Part shown: positions 21,001 through 30,000 of the stretch, piece by piece
Numbering within the stretch: the stretch's first letter is position 1
Layout: every line of letters begins with the position of its first letter
NCBI GenBank assembly: GCA_963701855.1
Contig: CAVPBK010000006.1
Coordinates: forward strand, 736,001 to 800,000
From: Nitrospirota bacterium
GTDB taxonomy: Bacteria; Nitrospirota; Nitrospiria; Nitrospirales; Nitrospiraceae
Length of the DNA stretch: 64,000 nt
Direction of reading: 5' to 3'
Made by a program: the position numbers

Positions 21001-24000
21001 CGCTGGCGGGCTTTTTCAGCATCCTGTCAGATCGAATACTGAAAGGTCGGCTTCGCCCCAATCGCCTGAGCCAGAACTCCACGGCGCTTGAGCTCCTCAA
21101 GAATCCGACGAGTGGCCGCATCAAAGTCTGCTGGGCCTGACAGGACGATATCCGTATTGGGAGGGACTTCTTCGGGCGCTTTGCTCATGTGAATGGCGAT
21201 GACTGGGACCGGATGGACGAGCGTCCTGATGGCCTGTGCCGCTTCCGCATAGGCCATGCCGAAGGGATTGGTTGTCGAAACGACGATCAACCCGGTATCG
21301 ACCAGCAGCCGCGCCACTTCGCCATAGCGGCGAGCCATCTCGGTCGCCTGCCCCCGTTCATCCTCCGAAAGGTCTGCATCGAGGCCGCGGCGGAGATTCT
21401 CTCCATCGAGCAGGTACGCATGCCGGCCATCAGCTACTAGCCTCGCCTCGATGGTCCTGGCAAGGAAGGATTTCCCCGTATGCCGCCCGCCGGTCACCAA
21501 TACAATGGCGGCTCGATGACCATATTGCTGCGCGCGATCCTCGACGCCGACTTGACCCTTCACCCAGGCAAAGTCTCGCTGCCGCGCTTCTTCGCGGAGA
21601 AACTCCTGATCGTCATGGACCAGTTCTGTCACGATGCCGCCACCGGCAATGTCATATTCATCCACGAGGACGAACCGGCCGGTCGACTCAAACGAGGCCG
21701 AGAGGTCGAAGGCAACCGGCGTTTTGGCCCGAATCGTCAATTCAGCGACTTGATTCTTATTGACCACGCTACTGCCTTGTTGCTGAGCCAGATCCATCGT
21801 ATCGATGATCCGATGAATGGTCGCCACCTCACAATCGACTTCCCTCGTCGCCACTCTGAGTTGATAGCGCCGCCCCCGTTCCAACGGCTTCCGGCCCAGC
21901 CAGAACACATTGGCTCGAAAGGCCGTCGACACCAGCGGGAGTTGTTCTTGATGCGAGGCTACCTCTCCTCGTTCGACAAAGATCTGCTCATCGAGCGTGA
22001 CGCCGACTGATTGGCCTGCATGACCCTCTACTGGCGGAGGATCGATATTGAACGCTTCAACGGACTTGACCGTCGCCCGTTTGTTCGACGGCGAAAAAAC
22101 CAGGGAGTCGCCGACCTTCACACGCCCGGCTGTGACGCGCCCTGCAATGATGCGGCGGGCGTCGAATTTATACACATCCTGAACCGGCAGACGAAGCGGT
22201 TGTTCGAATCGTCCCGGTTCCTTCCGAAAGGCGCTGAGCGCGTCCAATACCGTCGGACCGCTGTACCAGGGCATCTGCTCGCTCCGGTTGGCAATATTAT
22301 CTCCAAGCTTGGCGCTGACCGGAATGATCTGCTGTGGTACCGCCTTGAACTGTCCGAGGAACTCTCGATATTCCTTTTCGATCCCATCGAACACATCCTG
22401 TCGGTAGCCGACCAGATCCATCTTATTCACCACGACGGCAAACTGGCGTACGCCCAGGAGCGATAAGAGATAACCATGTTTTTTGGACTGTTCCTTCACG
22501 CCCTCCAAGGCATCGATCAGCAGCAACGCCCCTTCAGCCCGGGCTGCTCCGGAGATCATGTTCTTGAGAAACTCCTTATGACCCGGCGCATCGATGATGA
22601 TGTAGTGCCGGCCCTTCCAGCCGAAAAACGTCCGCGCCGTATCGATGGTGATTCCTTGCTCCTGCTCCTCAAGAAAGGCGTCGAACAGAAATGCGTACTC
22701 AAATTCCTTGCCCTGCTGGCGGCAGATCGCTTGAACTTTTTCAAGTTTGCCGTCTGGCAACGATCCTGTATCGGCATAGAGACGCCCCAGCAAGGTGGAC
22801 TTCCCATGGTCCACATGCCCGACAATGACGATATTCAAATTGTCTGATGGTTTCATAGTCGTTGTTGTCATTCGCATGCTCCAGAATGCTCAAACGAGCA
22901 GGCCAGCGAGGCCGCAGGGAGCGAGCTAAGTGAGGCGTACCCTCTGGGGTACGTCGCAGCGAAGGTCGCGACTGAGAACGAAGCTGGATGCTCGTTTCAG
23001 CATTCTGGGCCTACATGTAGCCGTCTTTGCGGAGTAGCTCCATCCCGCGCCCTTCATCCTGCGCACGGCCTGATCGCTCTGCCACCGTGGTGTGCCGCAA
23101 CTCGTCAATGATGTCGTCCACGGATTTTGCCGTCGATTTGATCGGAGTCGTACAGGGCGCACAGCCGAGACTGCGATAGCGGGTCCCCTCCCCCTTGTCG
23201 AGATAAAGATCGATGAAGGGAATGTTCTCGAACTTGATGTATTCCCAAATATTGATTTCTGTCCAATCCAGCAGCGGATGGATCCGGATATGTGTTCCCG
23301 GAGGAAACGTCGTTTTGAATTGATCCCAAAGCTCCGGCGGCTGATCGCGAAAATCCCAATCGCCATGTTTGTCACGAGGCGAGAAATAGCGTTCCTTGGC
23401 TCTCGTCCCTTCTTCGTCTGCGCGCACACCGAGAATGATGCCCGTATAGCCCTTTTGCTCGATCAATTGCTTGAGGCCATTGGTTTTCAGAGCCGTACAA
23501 CAGTTGACGCGGCCCAGCGTATGATTCATCCCGGCCGCGAGCGCTTCCTTGTTTTGCCCTACGACCAACTTGAGGCCCCACTCACGGGCCACTCGATCTC
23601 GATATTCGATCATGGCGGGAATTTTGTAACTCGTGTCGACGTGCAGCAGAGGGAAGGGAACATGGCCGAAAAAGGCCTTTCTGGCCAACCATAATAAAAC
23701 AGTCGAATCCTTCCCCATCGACCACAGCATAGCCAGGTTGTCGAAATGCTTATAGGCTTCCCGGAGAATGTAGACGCTCTGGTCTTCTAATTGACGAAGA
23801 TGTTGCACGGACTCGATTCCCTCGTATGGTCAATATATTCGGCCGGTCACACCGATACCCACCGGCTCTTGAGTCAACTCCTCCAGCTTTTTGGCCGCCG
23901 CCCCCTCTTCGAGCGCTCGACGCGCCAGCGGAAGGCACGACGCCCATGTCGCCCCTTTGCCTGCGGCGTACAGAATCAATGCCGCATTCATCAAGACCCA

Positions 24001-27000: not shown

Positions 27001-30000
27001 GTCGGCATAGAGGTCGGCGATGCGCGACTCCGGTATCCATCGAATGATCATGTTTTGATTGATCGTCGTCCGAATGTTGCCATTGGAGTAACGATCCGCA
27101 AGGTCAGCGATGAGCAGCATCTGCTCTGCCGTAAGATCGCCCATGAATAATTTAGTCACTGCGGCGACGTAGCCCTCTTGCTTCTGGCGCACCACATTGG
27201 TCCGCCGCCACATCTCAAATGGCGTCTCCGTCGGCGCCCCGTTTACATGCCCGTTGGCCTGCATCGCTGTCTGCTTCGACCCATTCGACATCGGCATGAT
27301 GAGAGGAACTGGTTCATCCGGATACGACAGTAACTTGATGGGCTCATGGGTGGGACGGGCATGCCCCATCGACATGTAGGCCTCCTCCCATCGACGTTTG
27401 AACTCCGCAAAGCCCAGCTTTTCGATCACAAACTTCATCCGGGCCTTTGTGCGATTTTTTCGATTGCCCAGGGTGTCGAACACCCGAATCACGGCTTCCA
27501 CACTTGGGATGAGCTCATCCATCGGGGTAAACTCCCGAAGGACCTGCGCGAGCCGAGGGGCCGAACCGAGTCCGCCGCCTGCGACCATGCGAAAACCGAC
27601 GACTCCATCCGCGCGCTTGGCTGCGAGAAGCCCGATATCGTGAATCGGTGTGAGCGCACAGTCCTGCTTACAGCCGGAGAAGGCAATTTTGAATTTACGC
27701 GGAAGGCTCTGATTGAGCGGATTCCGCAAAAGATGGAGCGCGACAGTTTTCGCATAGGGCGTCACGTCGAACACTTCCCCCTGGCAGATCCCGGCAAGAT
27801 GACAAGCCGTCACGTTACGAACCGTATTGGCGCAAGCTTCTCTGGTGGTCAAACCGACCTCAGCAAGCCCGCGCATGATCGTCGGCACATCCTTTAATTC
27901 AACAAAATGCAACTGGATATCCTGGCGCGTGGTGACATGCCCGACGCCGGTGGCATATTGCTCGGTCAGTTCTGCAACCCGACGCAATTGATTGGCCGTG
28001 ACCCCGCCGAAGGGAATCTTGATACGGATCATCTGGACACCGGCTTGCCGTTGGCCATAAATGCCGTACTGGAGACGAAAGGGCCTGAATAGATCGGCTG
28101 AGACGTCGCCCGAAACCATGCGCATTGCCTCAGCCTCGAATGTCTCGATCTCCTCGACAACAGCAGGAGGAATGGGCTCTGTTTTGATGGGAACCGTACT
28201 GAGTGGTGTGCGATTCATAGGTAACCTCAAATGTGGTACATCAACGACCGCTCTTCTTCAAGCACTCGTTGCTGTCCGGCTAATTCTTCCACGCTGATGG
28301 CTTCAAGTACATGGCGTTCTGCTTGATAAACCTGCTCCCAAACCCTCCCAAGCAGAAGTTCCGGTTTGCTGAGTCGTCGCCCCTGTGTACGGCCAGCTCC
28401 GCCACTCGGGAGTGAAAGCGGACCATCAAGTGCCTCGATGATTTCGACAACCGATAGCTCGGACGGTTTCTTCGAAAGCACATACCCTCCCTGCGCTCCT
28501 CGAAGGCTCGATACAAGACCGGCCTTCTTCATCCCATAAAGAACTTGCTCGAGAAATCGAGCAGGGATGGCCTGTCGACGCGCAATTGATTTTGCTTGAA
28601 CTGGCGCTGTTCCGAGATGCATCGCTAGATCGACAGCTGCCATGATTCCATAGGTAGCTCTGAGGGACACCTTCATACATGAGTATTCCGGTAGGAATTA
28701 AAACACATGTCGTGTCTTATACTCCCTGAAAGACTCTACTGTCAAGCGACCTCTCGCTGAAAGTCCCGAGTGCGCAGTCTTGGCAGAATGCTGAAACGGT
28801 TCGCCGACGGAAGAGGATTGTTATTTGGTTTGTCTGGTTTTGTTCGTTGAACGAAACTAACCAGATGAACCAACCGTCCAGATAAACAAAACAAACCAGA
28901 TCAACCAGACAAACCAGGCCTGTCCCACATAAGTGGACCCTCTATGTTCTCGCCTGCCAAAGGAGTATCCCGGCAGCCTGATCGAGAGCAGCCTGCGTTA
29001 GCCAGGAATGAATTTGTCGAGAGGATTACTGCACGTACATGCTAGTCGAATGAAATGGGCACGGCACAGAAACAGTCGGACCAGTGAAGCGTTTCTCCCA
29101 AAACATCGATCCTCATTCGCTAAGACAAGACCGCCCACCCGGCGAGAAAAAACCATTCAGTTTTCCGTGCTCAGTTCAGCAAGAACCGCTCTCTCTATAT
29201 TTTCCCGGTTGACATCAAATTGGCTCTGGGCAATAATCACCCCGCTTCACCGATTTTTTCTCCAGGAATCTTCATGTCGTCTACGTCATCTGGCTTCAGC
29301 ATTTTGTTGCTCAGTGGTGACCCGGATATCCAGAGTCAGTTTAAGCACGCGTTCAAAGATGCTTCCGTGACTGTTGCGAAATACTCGTCCACGCTACCGA
29401 AGGACGTGACCCGACGCACGTTTGATGCGGTCATCATCGAATTGAAACCCGGCTCATCCAGTGGAACCTCCATCATACCTGCCAACATTGATCTCACGCA
29501 CACCTTGGTGATCGTCGGTTCTCGAACTGTGCTGAAACGAGCCTCCAAGTTCATGCTAGCGACGGCGCAACGGAAAATTGCGGAAGCCAATGGGAAAGAA
29601 GCCTTATCTCTTGAGGACTATCTCGAATGGAAGATGGGGGACTTTGTAAAAGGGATGAGAAACGGTTCCGGGCAGAACCTACATCCCATGTTGATCAGTG
29701 CCATTGAACGTCCCTTGATCACCAAAGCACTTCAGGAAACCAGGGGCAACCAGATTCAGGCAGCAGAACTGTTGGGCTTGAATCGCAATACCCTCAGGAA
29801 GAAAATCCATGACTTGCACATTCCCATGAAACGGAATAGGACCACGCAGATGCGAGAGGCCTGATATGTCTGCGCACGTTCCCGAAATGCCGGACTCATA
29901 TAGATGCGGTAACAGCAAACGTCGGTGACAAGGAATCGCGTAGTTCAACTCAAAATAGGAGGGGCACGATGACAAAAGAAGAGCTGATCGCAAAGATGGC

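What a model noticed while it worked through the whole genome (the two positions that open the first line are those of the whole stretch)
21027..28676. TrpD-fold paralogue and TusA-fused sulfite reductase in the sulfate-assimilation operon
Between cysD and cysH of the sulfate-assimilation operon (Rrf2 regulator, sulfite reductase, cysH, X, cysD, cysNC) sits X, a 353-aa paralogue of anthranilate phosphoribosyltransferase in which the PRPP-binding loop GTGGDGANT is replaced by an invariant SYAGKQDT, and the sulfite reductase carries a 270-aa C-terminal extension ending in a TusA sulfur-carrier domain. I read X, which every database calls TrpD, as a new enzyme of sulfur assimilation from the nucleoside-phosphorylase/phosphoribosyltransferase fold, most likely clearing or recycling the adenylate by-product (AMP/PAP) of APS/PAPS reduction, and the Sir-TusA fusion as handing reduced sulfur on as a protein persulfide instead of free [...]
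Evidence so far: Operon g02117-g02123. neighbours.tsv: Glycos_transf_3 within two genes of PAPS_reduct in 422-424 of 511 Nitrospirales but only 516-522 genomes of all ~200,000 compared (of ~90,000 that hold both families), i.e. ~81% of all cases are Nitrospirales; PAPS_reduct near TusA 391 of 511 in the order vs 936 overall. The genuine trpD is elsewhere in the trp operon (g03765, C10). Alignment of g02119, g03765 and 5 homologues of 72-78% identity: TrpD CGTGGDGANTFNIST vs LPSYAGKQDTFHAL, HGNRSVSSRSGSADVL vs HGYDGIPGRPGNAGVL, GMDGLDEIT vs GVEGDPELS, nearly invariant within the paralogue group. 947 homologues at E<=1e-20, the 120 listed are 72-92% identical and where named are all called 'anthranilate phosph [...]
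(Added by a program. Inside this text positions count along the whole contig: contig position 736,001 is position 1 of the stretch shown here. "Call 12" and the like, gene names such as g00115 and contig names such as C1 are that model's own, and its searches are not shown. The text may have been shortened before it was handed on; [...] marks where a part breaks off. The agent that wrote the report below was given it as the finding of a first reader that could run no searches.)

Follow-up and report, generated by a model that had tools for sequence, protein, structure and literature searches.

The report
TrpD2-like accessory gene of sulfate assimilation
A gene that databases label as a tryptophan-pathway enzyme has lost that enzyme's substrate site, resembles the poorly understood YbiB/TrpD2 proteins, and is a fixed but uncharacterised part of the sulfate-assimilation operon of Nitrospira-type nitrifying bacteria.

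Summary
The operon is real: Rrf2, sulfite reductase with a C-terminal Cys-loop/HEPN-like/TusA extension, cysH, X, cysD, cysN fused to a degenerate APS-kinase-like domain.

X has the TrpD fold but has lost nearly every PRPP/Mg ligand. The genuine trpD lies in a trpEGDCFBA operon elsewhere.

New here: X shares the P-x-Y-x-G loop and an N-terminal four-residue insert with E. coli YbiB, the DNA-binding TrpD2 protein. TrpD2 is therefore the closest known kind, though X is not a member.

X-level matches were found in 118 of 118 sampled Nitrospirales genomes. In four operon architectures, built from CysDN or Sat and from CysH or AprAB-like genes, X always lies next to the sulfate-activating gene. Similar clusters also exist without X, so X is an accessory.

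The function is inferred only. I favour binding of an adenylate-type anion such as APS or AMP.

The Sir-TusA fusion is already named in annotations and is wider than X. The cysH split is a one-base insertion. The scan noted this gene before in another genome.

The parts
28227..28676 (-). Rrf2-family regulator (CymR/IscR-like), first gene of the operon; its stop overlaps the Sir start
   Evidence: PF02082 at 102 bits; NF047409 CymR at 96 bits, below its cut-off of 195. It lies upstream of Sir in all 33 long Nitrospira loci.
25723..28230 (-). Ferredoxin-type assimilatory sulfite reductase, 835 aa, core about residues 1-570, with a C-terminal extension
   Evidence: NIR_SIR 190.7 bits and NIR_SIR_ferr 127.6 bits, two stretches each. 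Cysteines at 430, 436, 473 and 477.
26422..26445 (-). Invariant G-P-G-E-C-A-G-G loop (Cys600) at the start of the Sir extension
   Evidence: Invariant in 14 of 14 aligned extensions. Found by regex in 10 of 15 Sir-TusA loci outside the order. Modelled as a low-confidence loop.
26053..26439 (-). HEPN-like four-helix bundle inside the Sir extension
   Evidence: PF05168 at 23.4 bits against a cut-off of 22. AF2 helices at pLDDT about 80-92. Best Foldseek hit is 2hsb, a HEPN protein, target-normalised TM-score (TMt) 0.80. No R-x4-6-H motif seen by eye.
25732..25944 (-). TusA domain ending the Sir protein (Cys770 in G-V-A-C-P-M-N)
   Evidence: PF01206 at 58.6 bits against a cut-off of 28.6. The Cys is invariant in 14 of 14. 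Foldseek hits TusA/YhhP and YeeD.
24891..25599 (-). cysH (thioredoxin-type sulfonucleotide reductase with CC...CxxC cysteines), broken in this assembly by one extra base at 25357
   Evidence: PAPS_reduct in both pieces. NF002537 at 194.9 bits, above its cut-off of 154. One-base insertion relative to L001, L002, L005 and L025. Start ATG set from relatives.
23830..24891 (-). X: TrpD-fold, TrpD2-like protein of 353 aa; its start overlaps the cysH stop (TGATG)
23011..23808 (-). cysD, sulfate adenylyltransferase small subunit, 21 nt downstream of X
   Evidence: NF003587 at 362.9 bits, above its cut-off of 195.
21027..22877 (-). cysN GTPase subunit fused to a degenerate APS-kinase-like domain (residues about 430-616)
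   Evidence: TIGR02034 CysN at 341.9 bits, above 336.1. The APS_kinase hit covers only profile positions 2-108 of 152. The lid is deleted and LDGDN and FISP are changed.
20891..20912 (-). Terminator-like hairpin about 115 nt after cysN; possible operon end
   Evidence: a pattern match only. Six such sites in the region against 7.5 expected, so weak.

Best explanation
X is not an anthranilate phosphoribosyltransferase. It belongs to the non-TrpD, YbiB/TrpD2-like part of the TrpD/nucleoside-phosphorylase-II fold, and in Nitrospirales it has become a fixed accessory of the sulfate-assimilation operon.

The cleft at the C-terminal ends of the beta-strands is kept. Its PRPP, Mg and pyrophosphate ligands are replaced by a conserved set of Tyr87, Lys90, His95, Tyr154, His181, Arg185 and His201-Pro-Pro, alongside the retained His114-Gly115, Arg171, Asn188-Pro189 and Glu231.

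My preferred mechanism is inferred, not shown. X binds an anionic adenylate-type molecule of the pathway in this remodelled cleft. APS is most likely, because it is the one compound made by both kinds of ATP sulfurylase and used by both kinds of APS reductase; AMP is the alternative. X would then act as a binding, hand-over or regulatory factor for the thermodynamically difficult and product-inhibited sulfate-activation step, rather than as a PRPP-dependent enzyme.

The Sir extension is a separate feature: an invariant Cys loop, a HEPN-like bundle, a linker and TusA. It probably captures or relays sulfur at the reductase. This too is inferred.
For: SHOWN
- Fold: AF2 model with pLDDT 95.7. The top Foldseek hits are all TrpD, with TM 0.82-0.92.
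- Loss of TrpD ligands, from alignments read against the residue roles given in passages of PMC9835598. GTGGD becomes S-Y-A-G-K with a one-residue deletion. Also replaced are the alpha5 Ser/Thr, the Lys and Asn-Arg of the K-H-G-N-R motif (His-Gly kept), the Ser-Ser of the beta2-alpha6 loop, S-A-D, and the Asp of the D-E pair.
- YbiB likeness: E. coli YbiB has P-S-Y-N-G-A-R-K where X has P-S-Y-A-G-K-Q-D, and the same four-residue insert after G-x-G near the N-terminus that all 84 TrpD rows lack. YbiB Arg123 aligns with X Arg122, and YbiB Arg92 lies next to X Lys90. Both arginines bind an acidic peptide in YbiB (passages of PMC10123104).
- The clade-specific conserved residues sit at the ends of strands 81-86, 110-115, 152-156, 194-199 and 219-224.
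- Purifying selection: dN/dS 0.08-0.14 in 4 pairs.
- Distribution: matches at E <= 1e-73 in 118 of 118 sampled Nitrospirales genomes, against 4 of 283 other Nitrospirota at E <= 1e-60.
- Linkage in four architectures, always beside the sulfurylase gene:
  1. Rrf2-Sir-cysH-X-cysD-cysN: 33 of 33 long Nitrospira loci and 13 of 15 further Nitrospirales loci.
  2. ...cysD-cysN-X: 2 of those 15. Among 55 metagenome loci with X at 50% identity or more, 42 have cysN directly upstream, 2 have it further upstream, 1 is cysH-X-cysD, and 10 are cut at the contig end.
  3. TauE-AprA-like-AprB-like-Sir-TusA-X-Sat (L090).
  4. Rrf2-small Sir-AprA-like-AprB-like-Sat-X (L088).

INFERRED
- The identity of the ligand.
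- The structural analogy between TrpD's product (a base on ribose 5-phosphate) and AMP or APS.
Against: - No biochemistry exists, and no ligand was docked or tested.
- Clusters of the same types lack X in 8 of 8 further Nitrospirota loci that carry the flanking sulfate genes (L169-L171, L174, L175, L179, L180, L182). In 6 of the 10 sampled genomes outside the order that have cysD, X was not found. X is therefore dispensable for the pathway as such.
- Relatives of the same motif clade are not in sulfur contexts. L087, L089 and L102 have none. L129 lies near LexA. L135, L148, L152 and L156 lie beside CbiX. The family's general activity may therefore have nothing to do with APS.
- Arg122 and the loop around it are not conserved in the order's second family.
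- The nearest characterised relative, YbiB, binds nucleic acids and an acidic protein tail, not a small molecule.
- The conserved residues were placed on secondary structure only. No coordinates were available to me.
Confidence: 0.35

Rival explanations
1. X is a new enzyme of the nucleoside-phosphorylase/phosphoribosyltransferase fold that cleaves or recycles the adenylate by-product (AMP, or PAP) of APS/PAPS reduction and so pulls the pathway forward.
For: - AMP is a common product of both CysH-type and AprAB-type reductases, which are found beside X.
- X keeps Arg171 (the base-site arginine of TrpD), His114-Gly115, Asn188-Pro189 and Glu231. It has a strongly conserved cleft and dN/dS of 0.08-0.14.
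- Recalled, not checked here: AMP phosphorylases of archaea belong to the same fold superfamily.
Against: - The loops that hold phosphate or pyrophosphate in this fold (GTGGD, the Ser-rich beta2-alpha6 loop, the Mg-binding Ser and Asp) are the ones replaced. Phosphorolysis or pyrophosphorolysis therefore has no visible site.
- X lacks the extra C-terminal domain of class II nucleoside phosphorylases.
- PAP is unlikely here. The CysN-fused kinase-like domain is degenerate, and cysH has the CC...CxxC cysteines (reading these as the APS type is recalled).
- The pathway runs without X in related genomes.
- The nearest characterised relative has no known catalysis.
Confidence: 0.15
2. X works like YbiB/TrpD2. 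It is a polyanion (nucleic acid or acidic peptide) binding protein that acts in regulation, for example on the operon's mRNA, on DNA, or as a partner of a GTPase such as CysN. It would not act on a metabolite.
For: - X shares the loop motif, the N-terminal insert and the basic residues at or next to YbiB Arg92 and Arg123.
- E. coli YbiB groups with other proteins carrying the Y-A-G-K motif (SH-aLRT 95).
- More distant motif relatives lie beside RuvC/RuvA/YebC (L089), near LexA (L129), beside a helix-hairpin-helix protein (L102) and beside Trp/Tyr-tRNA synthetase genes (L087, L129, L135).
- YbiB binds the GTPase ObgE (abstract and passages of PMC10123104), and CysN is a GTPase.
Against: - X scores 144.5 bits on the YbiB model NF006005 against a cut-off of 185. 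In the tree it is not on the YbiB side of the starred branch.
- X keeps Glu231 and a fuller set of cleft residues than YbiB.
- Two of the four architectures use Sat, which is not a GTPase.
- The operon already has an Rrf2 regulator.
- There is no LexA or dinG context in Nitrospirales.
Confidence: 0.2
3. X serves the sulfite reductase rather than the activation step. It might be a siroheme or sulfite handling factor: a chaperone for cofactor insertion, or a carrier of sulfite between reductases.
For: - A siroheme sulfite reductase gene is present in all four architectures.
- In the more distant clade, X-like genes lie directly beside CbiX, a sirohydrochlorin chelatase family, in 4 of the 7 metagenome loci examined (L135, L148, L152, L156). 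In L148 a formate/nitrite-type transporter is also nearby.
- L090 has a TauE sulfite-exporter-family gene in the cluster.
Against: - In Nitrospirales the only CbiX match in the genome is about 32 kb away, at window 61236-61508.
- X is never the immediate neighbour of Sir except in L090, and it is always next to the sulfurylase gene.
- The Sir of L088 is a different, small type.
- 23 of the 26 listed genomes outside the order with a full Sir-TusA match have no X-level match.
Confidence: 0.1
4. X is a second, divergent but functional TrpD, or a decaying duplicate without function.
For: TIGR01245 at 199.9 bits, just over the cut-off of 199.05. Databases name it TrpD.
Against: - All tested PRPP and Mg ligands are lost.
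- The order-wide clade is separate from the TrpD clade, which has SH-aLRT 100.
- X is intact and under purifying selection.
- A complete trp operon with a normal trpD is present.
Confidence: 0.02

Closest known systems
YbiB of E. coli and the TrpD2 family (DNA-binding, PRT-III fold, function unknown)
   Same: - Same two-domain fold family.
- No GTGGD PRPP motif.
- The same P-S-Y-x-G loop at that place, and the same four-residue insert after G-x-G near the N-terminus.
- His181, Arg/Lys185 and His201 shared.
- Basic residues at or next to YbiB Arg92 and Arg123 (family description from passages of PMC10123104 and PMC9835598).
   Different: - X is below the YbiB model's cut-off (144.5 against 185).
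- phmmer scores X higher against solved TrpDs (148 bits) than against YbiB (74 bits).
- X is not on YbiB's side of the starred branch in the tree.
- X keeps Glu231 and Asn188, which E. coli YbiB lacks.
- The context is a sulfate-assimilation operon, not the LexA-controlled dinG-ybiB operon.
Anthranilate phosphoribosyltransferase TrpD (TIGR01245; PF02885 + PF00591)
   Same: - Fold with TM 0.82-0.92 to solved TrpDs.
- Same length.
- 29-35% identity, and 30% to the genome's own TrpD.
- Retained His-Gly, Arg171, Asn-Pro and Glu231.
   Different: - GTGGD, the Mg-binding Ser and Asp, the Lys and Asn-Arg of the K-H-G-N-R motif (His-Gly kept), and S-S...S-A-D are all replaced.
- X is not in a trp operon, while the genome has a complete trpEGDCFBA with a normal trpD.
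Stand-alone TusA, YeeD/TsuB and DsrC-type sulfur carriers that work with sulfite reductases or sulfur transporters
   Same: - The Sir extension ends in a TusA domain with the conserved Cys-Pro.
- A second invariant Cys sits in a flexible Gly-rich loop. I recall, without checking here, that DsrC has a Cys-bearing arm that enters DsrAB.
   Different: - Here the carrier is fused to an assimilatory, ferredoxin-type Sir through a HEPN-like bundle.
- No DsrC homology was found.
- The fusion is known only from annotation lines such as 'Putative sulfite reductase, contains SirA-like domain (Modular protein)'. No paper on it was found.

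Membership tests
TrpD (anthranilate phosphoribosyltransferase) | GTGGD loop that holds PRPP | tested here: not met
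   X has S-Y-A-G-K with a one-residue deletion. All 84 TrpD rows have G at the Tyr87 position. The role of the motif comes from passages of PMC9835598.
TrpD (anthranilate phosphoribosyltransferase) | Mg/PRPP ligands: Ser on alpha5, K-H-G-N-R, Ser-Ser loop, Asp-Glu pair | tested here: not met
   The positions read Leu97/Ala98, Met113, Tyr116-Asp117, Pro120-Gly121 and Pro230. Only Glu231 and His114-Gly115 are kept. The mapping from M. tuberculosis numbering is by motif and is my inference.
TrpD (anthranilate phosphoribosyltransferase) | Curated model score (TIGR01245) | tested here: met
   199.9 bits against a cut-off of 199.05, which is marginal. Relatives P0001, P0007, P0008, P0011, P0015, P0020 and P0022 fall below it.
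TrpD (anthranilate phosphoribosyltransferase) | Placement in tryptophan-biosynthesis context | tested here: not met
   X lies between cysH and cysD. The trp operon with a normal trpD is on contig C10.
TrpD2 / YbiB | TrpD fold without the PRPP motif | tested here: met
   The definition is taken from passages of PMC9835598 and PMC10123104. The founding paper (PMC4528117) is not held.
TrpD2 / YbiB | Conserved arginines of the charged groove (YbiB Arg92, Arg123) | tested here: inconclusive
   The position aligned with Arg123 is Arg in 17 of 25 and Lys in 2 of 25 X-clade rows, but Ser in the order's second family. The position aligned with Arg92 is mixed (Gln, His, Lys or Arg), with Lys90 one position before it in 23 of 25.
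TrpD2 / YbiB | Curated model score (NF006005) | tested here: not met
   144.5 bits against a cut-off of 185. NF006564 and NF005635 are also below their cut-offs.
TrpD2 / YbiB | Groups with YbiB in a family tree | tested here: inconclusive
   In the quick LG+G4 tree of 78 rows, YbiB (a long branch of 1.71) joins four other Y-A-G-K proteins (SH-aLRT 95). X's clade of 25 rows (92) lies between these and the TrpD clade (100). The root is unknown.
TrpD2 / YbiB | Binds nucleic acids; LexA-controlled with dinG | not testable with these tools
   Binding needs an experiment. The context differs in Nitrospirales.
Nucleoside phosphorylase class II (thymidine/AMP phosphorylase) | Additional C-terminal alpha/beta domain and phosphate-binding loops | tested here: not met
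   X ends with the TrpD-type domain. Only PF02885 and PF00591 were found. All top Foldseek hits are TrpD. The feature is taken from a passage of PMC9835598.
Assimilatory sulfite reductase (siroheme-[4Fe-4S]) | Two NIR_SIR_ferr plus NIR_SIR halves with a Cys-x5-Cys...Cys-x3-Cys cluster | tested here: met
   Pfam hits. Cysteines at 430, 436, 473 and 477. The ligand pattern itself is recalled.
TusA | PF01206 over cut-off with the conserved Cys-Pro | tested here: met
   58.6 bits against a cut-off of 28.6. Cys770-Pro is invariant in 14 of 14. The second Pro of the recalled C-P-x-P motif is Asn here.
APS kinase (CysC) for the C-terminal domain of CysN | Full-length kinase domain with P-loop, LDGDN, FISP and lid | tested here: not met
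   The domain covers profile positions 2-108 of 152. It has a 29-residue gap where E. coli CysC has its lid, reads LDGEN, LDPEN or LSQEN, reads TTNP or TTNA/TTNS for FISP, and has lost the P-loop in L085. The residue roles are recalled. A normal stand-alone CysC is at C1:109218-109658.

The most novel reading that the evidence does not exclude
X is a previously unrecognised fifth component of assimilatory sulfate reduction: an APS-binding (or APS/AMP-converting) protein derived from the TrpD2 branch that couples ATP sulfurylase to APS reductase. If so, it also gives the first physiological small-molecule context for the TrpD2/YbiB family, whose cleft may be a ligand site rather than only a DNA-binding groove.
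Probability: 0.25. Interest if true: 0.75.

Novelty: new variant of a known kind. Interest (0 to 1): 0.55.

Why it matters
- Nitrospirales carry out nitrite oxidation and complete ammonia oxidation in soils, waters and treatment plants, and every sampled member keeps this gene inside its only sulfate-assimilation operon.
- The textbook pathway has no place for such a protein. A conserved accessory beside the sulfate-activating enzyme points to an unknown coupling, protective or regulatory step at the reaction that limits the pathway thermodynamically.
- The gene is systematically mislabelled as TrpD, so genome-scale models of these organisms count a tryptophan enzyme that is not one.
- The link to YbiB/TrpD2 gives a new, testable angle on a family whose function has stayed open since its description.
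- The Sir-HEPN-TusA fusion, with two invariant cysteines, suggests that reduced sulfur may leave an assimilatory sulfite reductase bound to protein. This can be tested with the same constructs.

Tried and rejected
- Complex prediction with CysH and X, each as a 20-row alignment: 'no answer', score 0.00. This is neither for nor against binding.
- Rosetta-stone fusion: the search for longer proteins gave one 708-aa protein with PAPS_reduct plus the TrpD domains. Its sequence shows an X-like part whose C-terminal end turns into an Arg-rich stretch and then runs into CysD. I read this as a frameshifted gene call, not a true fusion.
- The 5'-nucleotidase gene (PF06189) just downstream of cysN looked relevant to AMP. 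It is absent downstream of cysN in 78 of 78 loci that have at least 1.8 kb of room, so it is not part of the system.
- The first metagenome scan, with a 12-row alignment, had no stretch conserved enough. A 4-row alignment worked.
- The careful and mixture-model tree did not finish. The quick LG+G4 tree was used instead.
- Six literature searches found nothing on a TrpD-like gene in sulfate assimilation or on a Sir-TusA fusion (search listings only, apart from the passages read). AGeNNT (PMC5445326) analyses the TrpD family's gene neighbourhoods but does not mention sulfur.
- The ESM Atlas search gave only clusters of the same family.
- Foldseek on the Sir extension model (mean pLDDT 65) is usable only for its two ordered domains.

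Full report
THE LOCUS

Six genes lie head to tail on the minus strand:
- Rrf2 regulator, 28676-28227.
- An 835-aa sulfite reductase, 28230-25723.
- cysH, 25599-24891.
- X, 24891-23830.
- cysD, 23808-23011.
- cysN fused to an APS-kinase-like domain, 22877-21027.

Pfam and NCBIfam confirm each family. Rrf2 and Sir overlap. The cysH stop and the X start overlap as TGATG, and X ends 21 nt before cysD. A terminator-like hairpin follows cysN, but it is only a pattern match.

CYSH IS SPLIT, NOT TRUNCATED

It is split into two frames by one extra base at 25357, compared with four close relatives in which the gene is whole. A second split gene of the Mrp/NUBPL type lies at 17496-18387.

X IS NOT TRPD

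The AlphaFold model is confident (pLDDT 95.7). Its best structural matches are all solved TrpDs, with TM 0.82-0.92.

The residues that TrpD uses are gone. I took their roles from passages of a review (PMC9835598): the GTGGD loop and the Ser-Ser loop hold the 5-phosphate, a Ser on helix alpha5 and an Asp-Glu pair hold Mg-pyrophosphate, and Asn-Arg and an Arg on alpha8 hold ribose and anthranilate. In X the changes are these:
- GTGGD is S-Y-A-G-K, with one residue deleted.
- The alpha5 Ser/Thr are Leu/Ala.
- K-H-G-N-R is M-H-G-Y-D.
- Ser-Ser is Pro-Gly.
- S-A-D is N-A-G.
- The Asp of the D-E pair is Pro.

Kept are His114-Gly115, Arg171, Asn188-Pro189 and Glu231.

The genome's real trpD carries GTGGD and scores 297.6 bits on PF00591, against 137.6 for X. 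It sits in trpE-G-D-C-F-B-A on contig C10. X passes the TIGR01245 cut-off by 0.85 bits, which explains the database name. Of 28 named rows among 120 listed homologues, 27 are called anthranilate phosphoribosyltransferase.

WHAT X RESEMBLES

E. coli YbiB, the founding TrpD2 protein, was fetched from the K-12 record. It has P-S-Y-N-G-A-R-K exactly where X has P-S-Y-A-G-K-Q-D. It also has the same four-residue insert after G-x-G near the N-terminus, which all 84 TrpD rows lack.

His181, Arg/Lys185 and His201 are also shared. YbiB Arg123 aligns with X Arg122, and YbiB Arg92 lies next to X Lys90. These two arginines hold an acidic peptide of ObgE in the charged groove of YbiB (PMC10123104, abstract and passages).

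In a quick LG+G4 tree of 78 rows:
- TrpD is one clade (SH-aLRT 100).
- X of Nitrospirales is one clade of 15 rows (99), inside a 25-row Y-A-G-K clade (92).
- YbiB, on a long branch, joins four other Y-A-G-K proteins (95).
- A Y-D-G-K group lies next to TrpD.

The root is unknown. X does not reach the cut-off of any curated paralogue model (YbiB 144.5 against 185), and neither do its relatives. X therefore works from the same remodelled scaffold as TrpD2 but is not a demonstrated member. I could not read the founding TrpD2 paper.

DISTRIBUTION AND LINKAGE

In an even sample of 401 Nitrospirota genomes:
- X-level matches (E <= 1e-73) were found in 118 of 118 Nitrospirales.
- Matches at E <= 1e-60 were found in 4 of the 283 others.

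Gene order:
- Rrf2-Sir-cysH-X-cysD-cysN holds in 33 of 33 Nitrospira loci of 15 kb or more, out of 80 fetched, and in 13 of 15 loci from the rest of the order.
- In the third family X follows cysN (2 of 15).
- The metagenome scan returned 67 loci. In 55 of them X is at least 50% identical to the window's X. Of these, 42 have cysN directly upstream, 2 have it further upstream, 1 has cysH-X-cysD, and 10 are cut at the contig edge.

Outside the order, two genomes carry X in clusters built from unrelated enzymes:
- Rrf2, small Sir, AprA-like, AprB-like, Sat, X (L088).
- TauE, AprA-like, AprB-like, Sir-TusA, X, Sat (L090).

In all four architectures X is the immediate neighbour of the sulfate-activating gene (cysD, cysN or sat). 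dN/dS is 0.08-0.14 for X and 0.004-0.018 for cysD.

EVIDENCE THAT LIMITS THE CLAIM

- The AprAB-like/Sir-TusA/Sat and cysH/Sir-TusA/Sat clusters occur without X in all 8 further Nitrospirota loci that carry such clusters.
- cysD occurs without an X-level match in 6 of the 10 sampled non-Nitrospirales genomes that have it.
- Many Nitrospira have a second cysD copy but only one X.
- More distant members of the motif clade are not in sulfur operons. L102 lies beside PEP carboxylase, a VKOR-DsbA gene, a DUF309 gene and a helix-hairpin-helix protein. L089 lies beside yebC-ruvC-ruvA. L129 lies near LexA. L087, L129 and L135 lie near a Trp/Tyr-tRNA synthetase gene. L135, L148, L152 and L156 lie directly beside CbiX, a sirohydrochlorin chelatase family.

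X is therefore an accessory, and the family's generic activity need not be specific to sulfur.

MECHANISM

Shown:
- The fold.
- The loss of the PRPP and Mg site.
- A conserved replacement set (Tyr87, Lys90, His95, Tyr154, His181, Arg185, His201-Pro-Pro) at the C-terminal ends of the five strands. This is where ligands bind in this fold and where YbiB binds polyanions.
- The genomic linkage.

Inferred: X binds an anionic adenylate-type compound. APS is the only metabolite made by both sulfurylase types and consumed by both reductase types. TrpD's own product is a base on ribose 5-phosphate, so it is shaped like a nucleotide. The loops that hold its 5-phosphate are the ones that gained Lys and Arg, while the pyrophosphate site was lost.

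I therefore favour a binding, hand-over or regulatory role at sulfate activation (confidence 0.35). The alternatives are an AMP/PAP-cleaving enzyme (0.15), a YbiB-like polyanion binder (0.2) and a siroheme or sulfite factor (0.1). The co-folding job for CysH with X gave no answer.

THE SULFITE REDUCTASE

The extension consists of:
- An invariant G-P-G-E-C-A-G-G loop (Cys600).
- A HEPN-like four-helix bundle (best match 2hsb, target-normalised TM-score 0.80).
- A Pro/Ala-rich disordered linker.
- TusA, with an invariant Cys770.

The Cys loop also occurs in 10 of 15 Sir-TusA genes from other Nitrospirota lineages, as found by regex.

The fusion is wider than X. At least 26 listed genomes outside the order have full-extension matches in open frames of about 790-1290 aa, and 3 of them have X. 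It is already labelled in databases, for example as 'Putative sulfite reductase, contains SirA-like domain (Modular protein)', 'sulfurtransferase TusA family protein' or 'HEPN domain-containing protein'. There are 1040 homologues at E <= 0.001. Protein-bound hand-over of sulfur is a reasonable inference but is untested.

LITERATURE AND EARLIER NOTES

Six full-text searches found no paper on either feature. An earlier report of this scan on another genome reached the same basic reading, a TrpD-like accessory gene of sulfate assimilation. The YbiB link, the Sat/AprAB architectures, the X-less clusters and the CbiX-linked clade are added here.

Noticed in passing
window 25357 (minus strand, inside cysH): One extra base in GATCGCGT[C]GATCG splits cysH into two frames. 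Four close relatives lack it.
   Followed up: partly
window 17496-18387 (minus strand): An Mrp/NUBPL-type ParA ATPase gene is also split into two overlapping ORFs. This hints that the assembly carries indel errors.
   Followed up: no
window 21027-21600 (C-terminal third of cysN): The APS-kinase-like domain fused to CysN is degenerate across the order: the lid is deleted, LDGDN and FISP are changed, and the P-loop is lost in one lineage. A normal stand-alone cysC lies at C1:109218-109658. The domain is probably an APS/PAPS-binding pseudo-kinase.
   Followed up: partly
window 18621-20523: A PF06189 5'-nucleotidase gene and a DUF2971 gene lie in a lower-GC stretch (0.49-0.52 against about 0.57) just downstream of the operon. 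The nucleotidase is absent at this place in 78 of 78 related loci, so this looks like a local insertion.
   Followed up: yes
L170, L171, L174, L175, L180, L182 (other Nitrospirota): Rrf2, AprA-like, AprB-like, Sir-TusA and Sat form clusters that look like an assimilatory pathway using an AprAB-type reductase. I recall a similar arrangement described for a marine methanogen, but did not check this here.
   Followed up: partly
L135, L148, L152, L156 (metagenome loci): X-like genes at 36-39% identity lie directly beside CbiX (sirohydrochlorin chelatase family). In L148 there is also a formate/nitrite-type transporter and a sigma-54 activator.
   Followed up: partly
G132:C19:53624-54418 and about 15 other Nitrospira genomes: A second cysD copy (71-76% identical) lies elsewhere in many Nitrospira genomes, without a second X-level match.
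   Followed up: no
L095 7798-8831 (G287): X is matched in two frames in this complete genome. This may be a frameshifted X, the only such case seen among the 15 Nitrospirales loci.
   Followed up: no
P0271 (708 aa, one metagenome contig): An apparent X-CysD fusion whose junction is an Arg-rich out-of-frame stretch. I read it as a frameshifted gene call.
   Followed up: yes
window 61236-61508 (+): The genome's only CbiX-family match lies in this window, about 32 kb from the operon.
   Followed up: no
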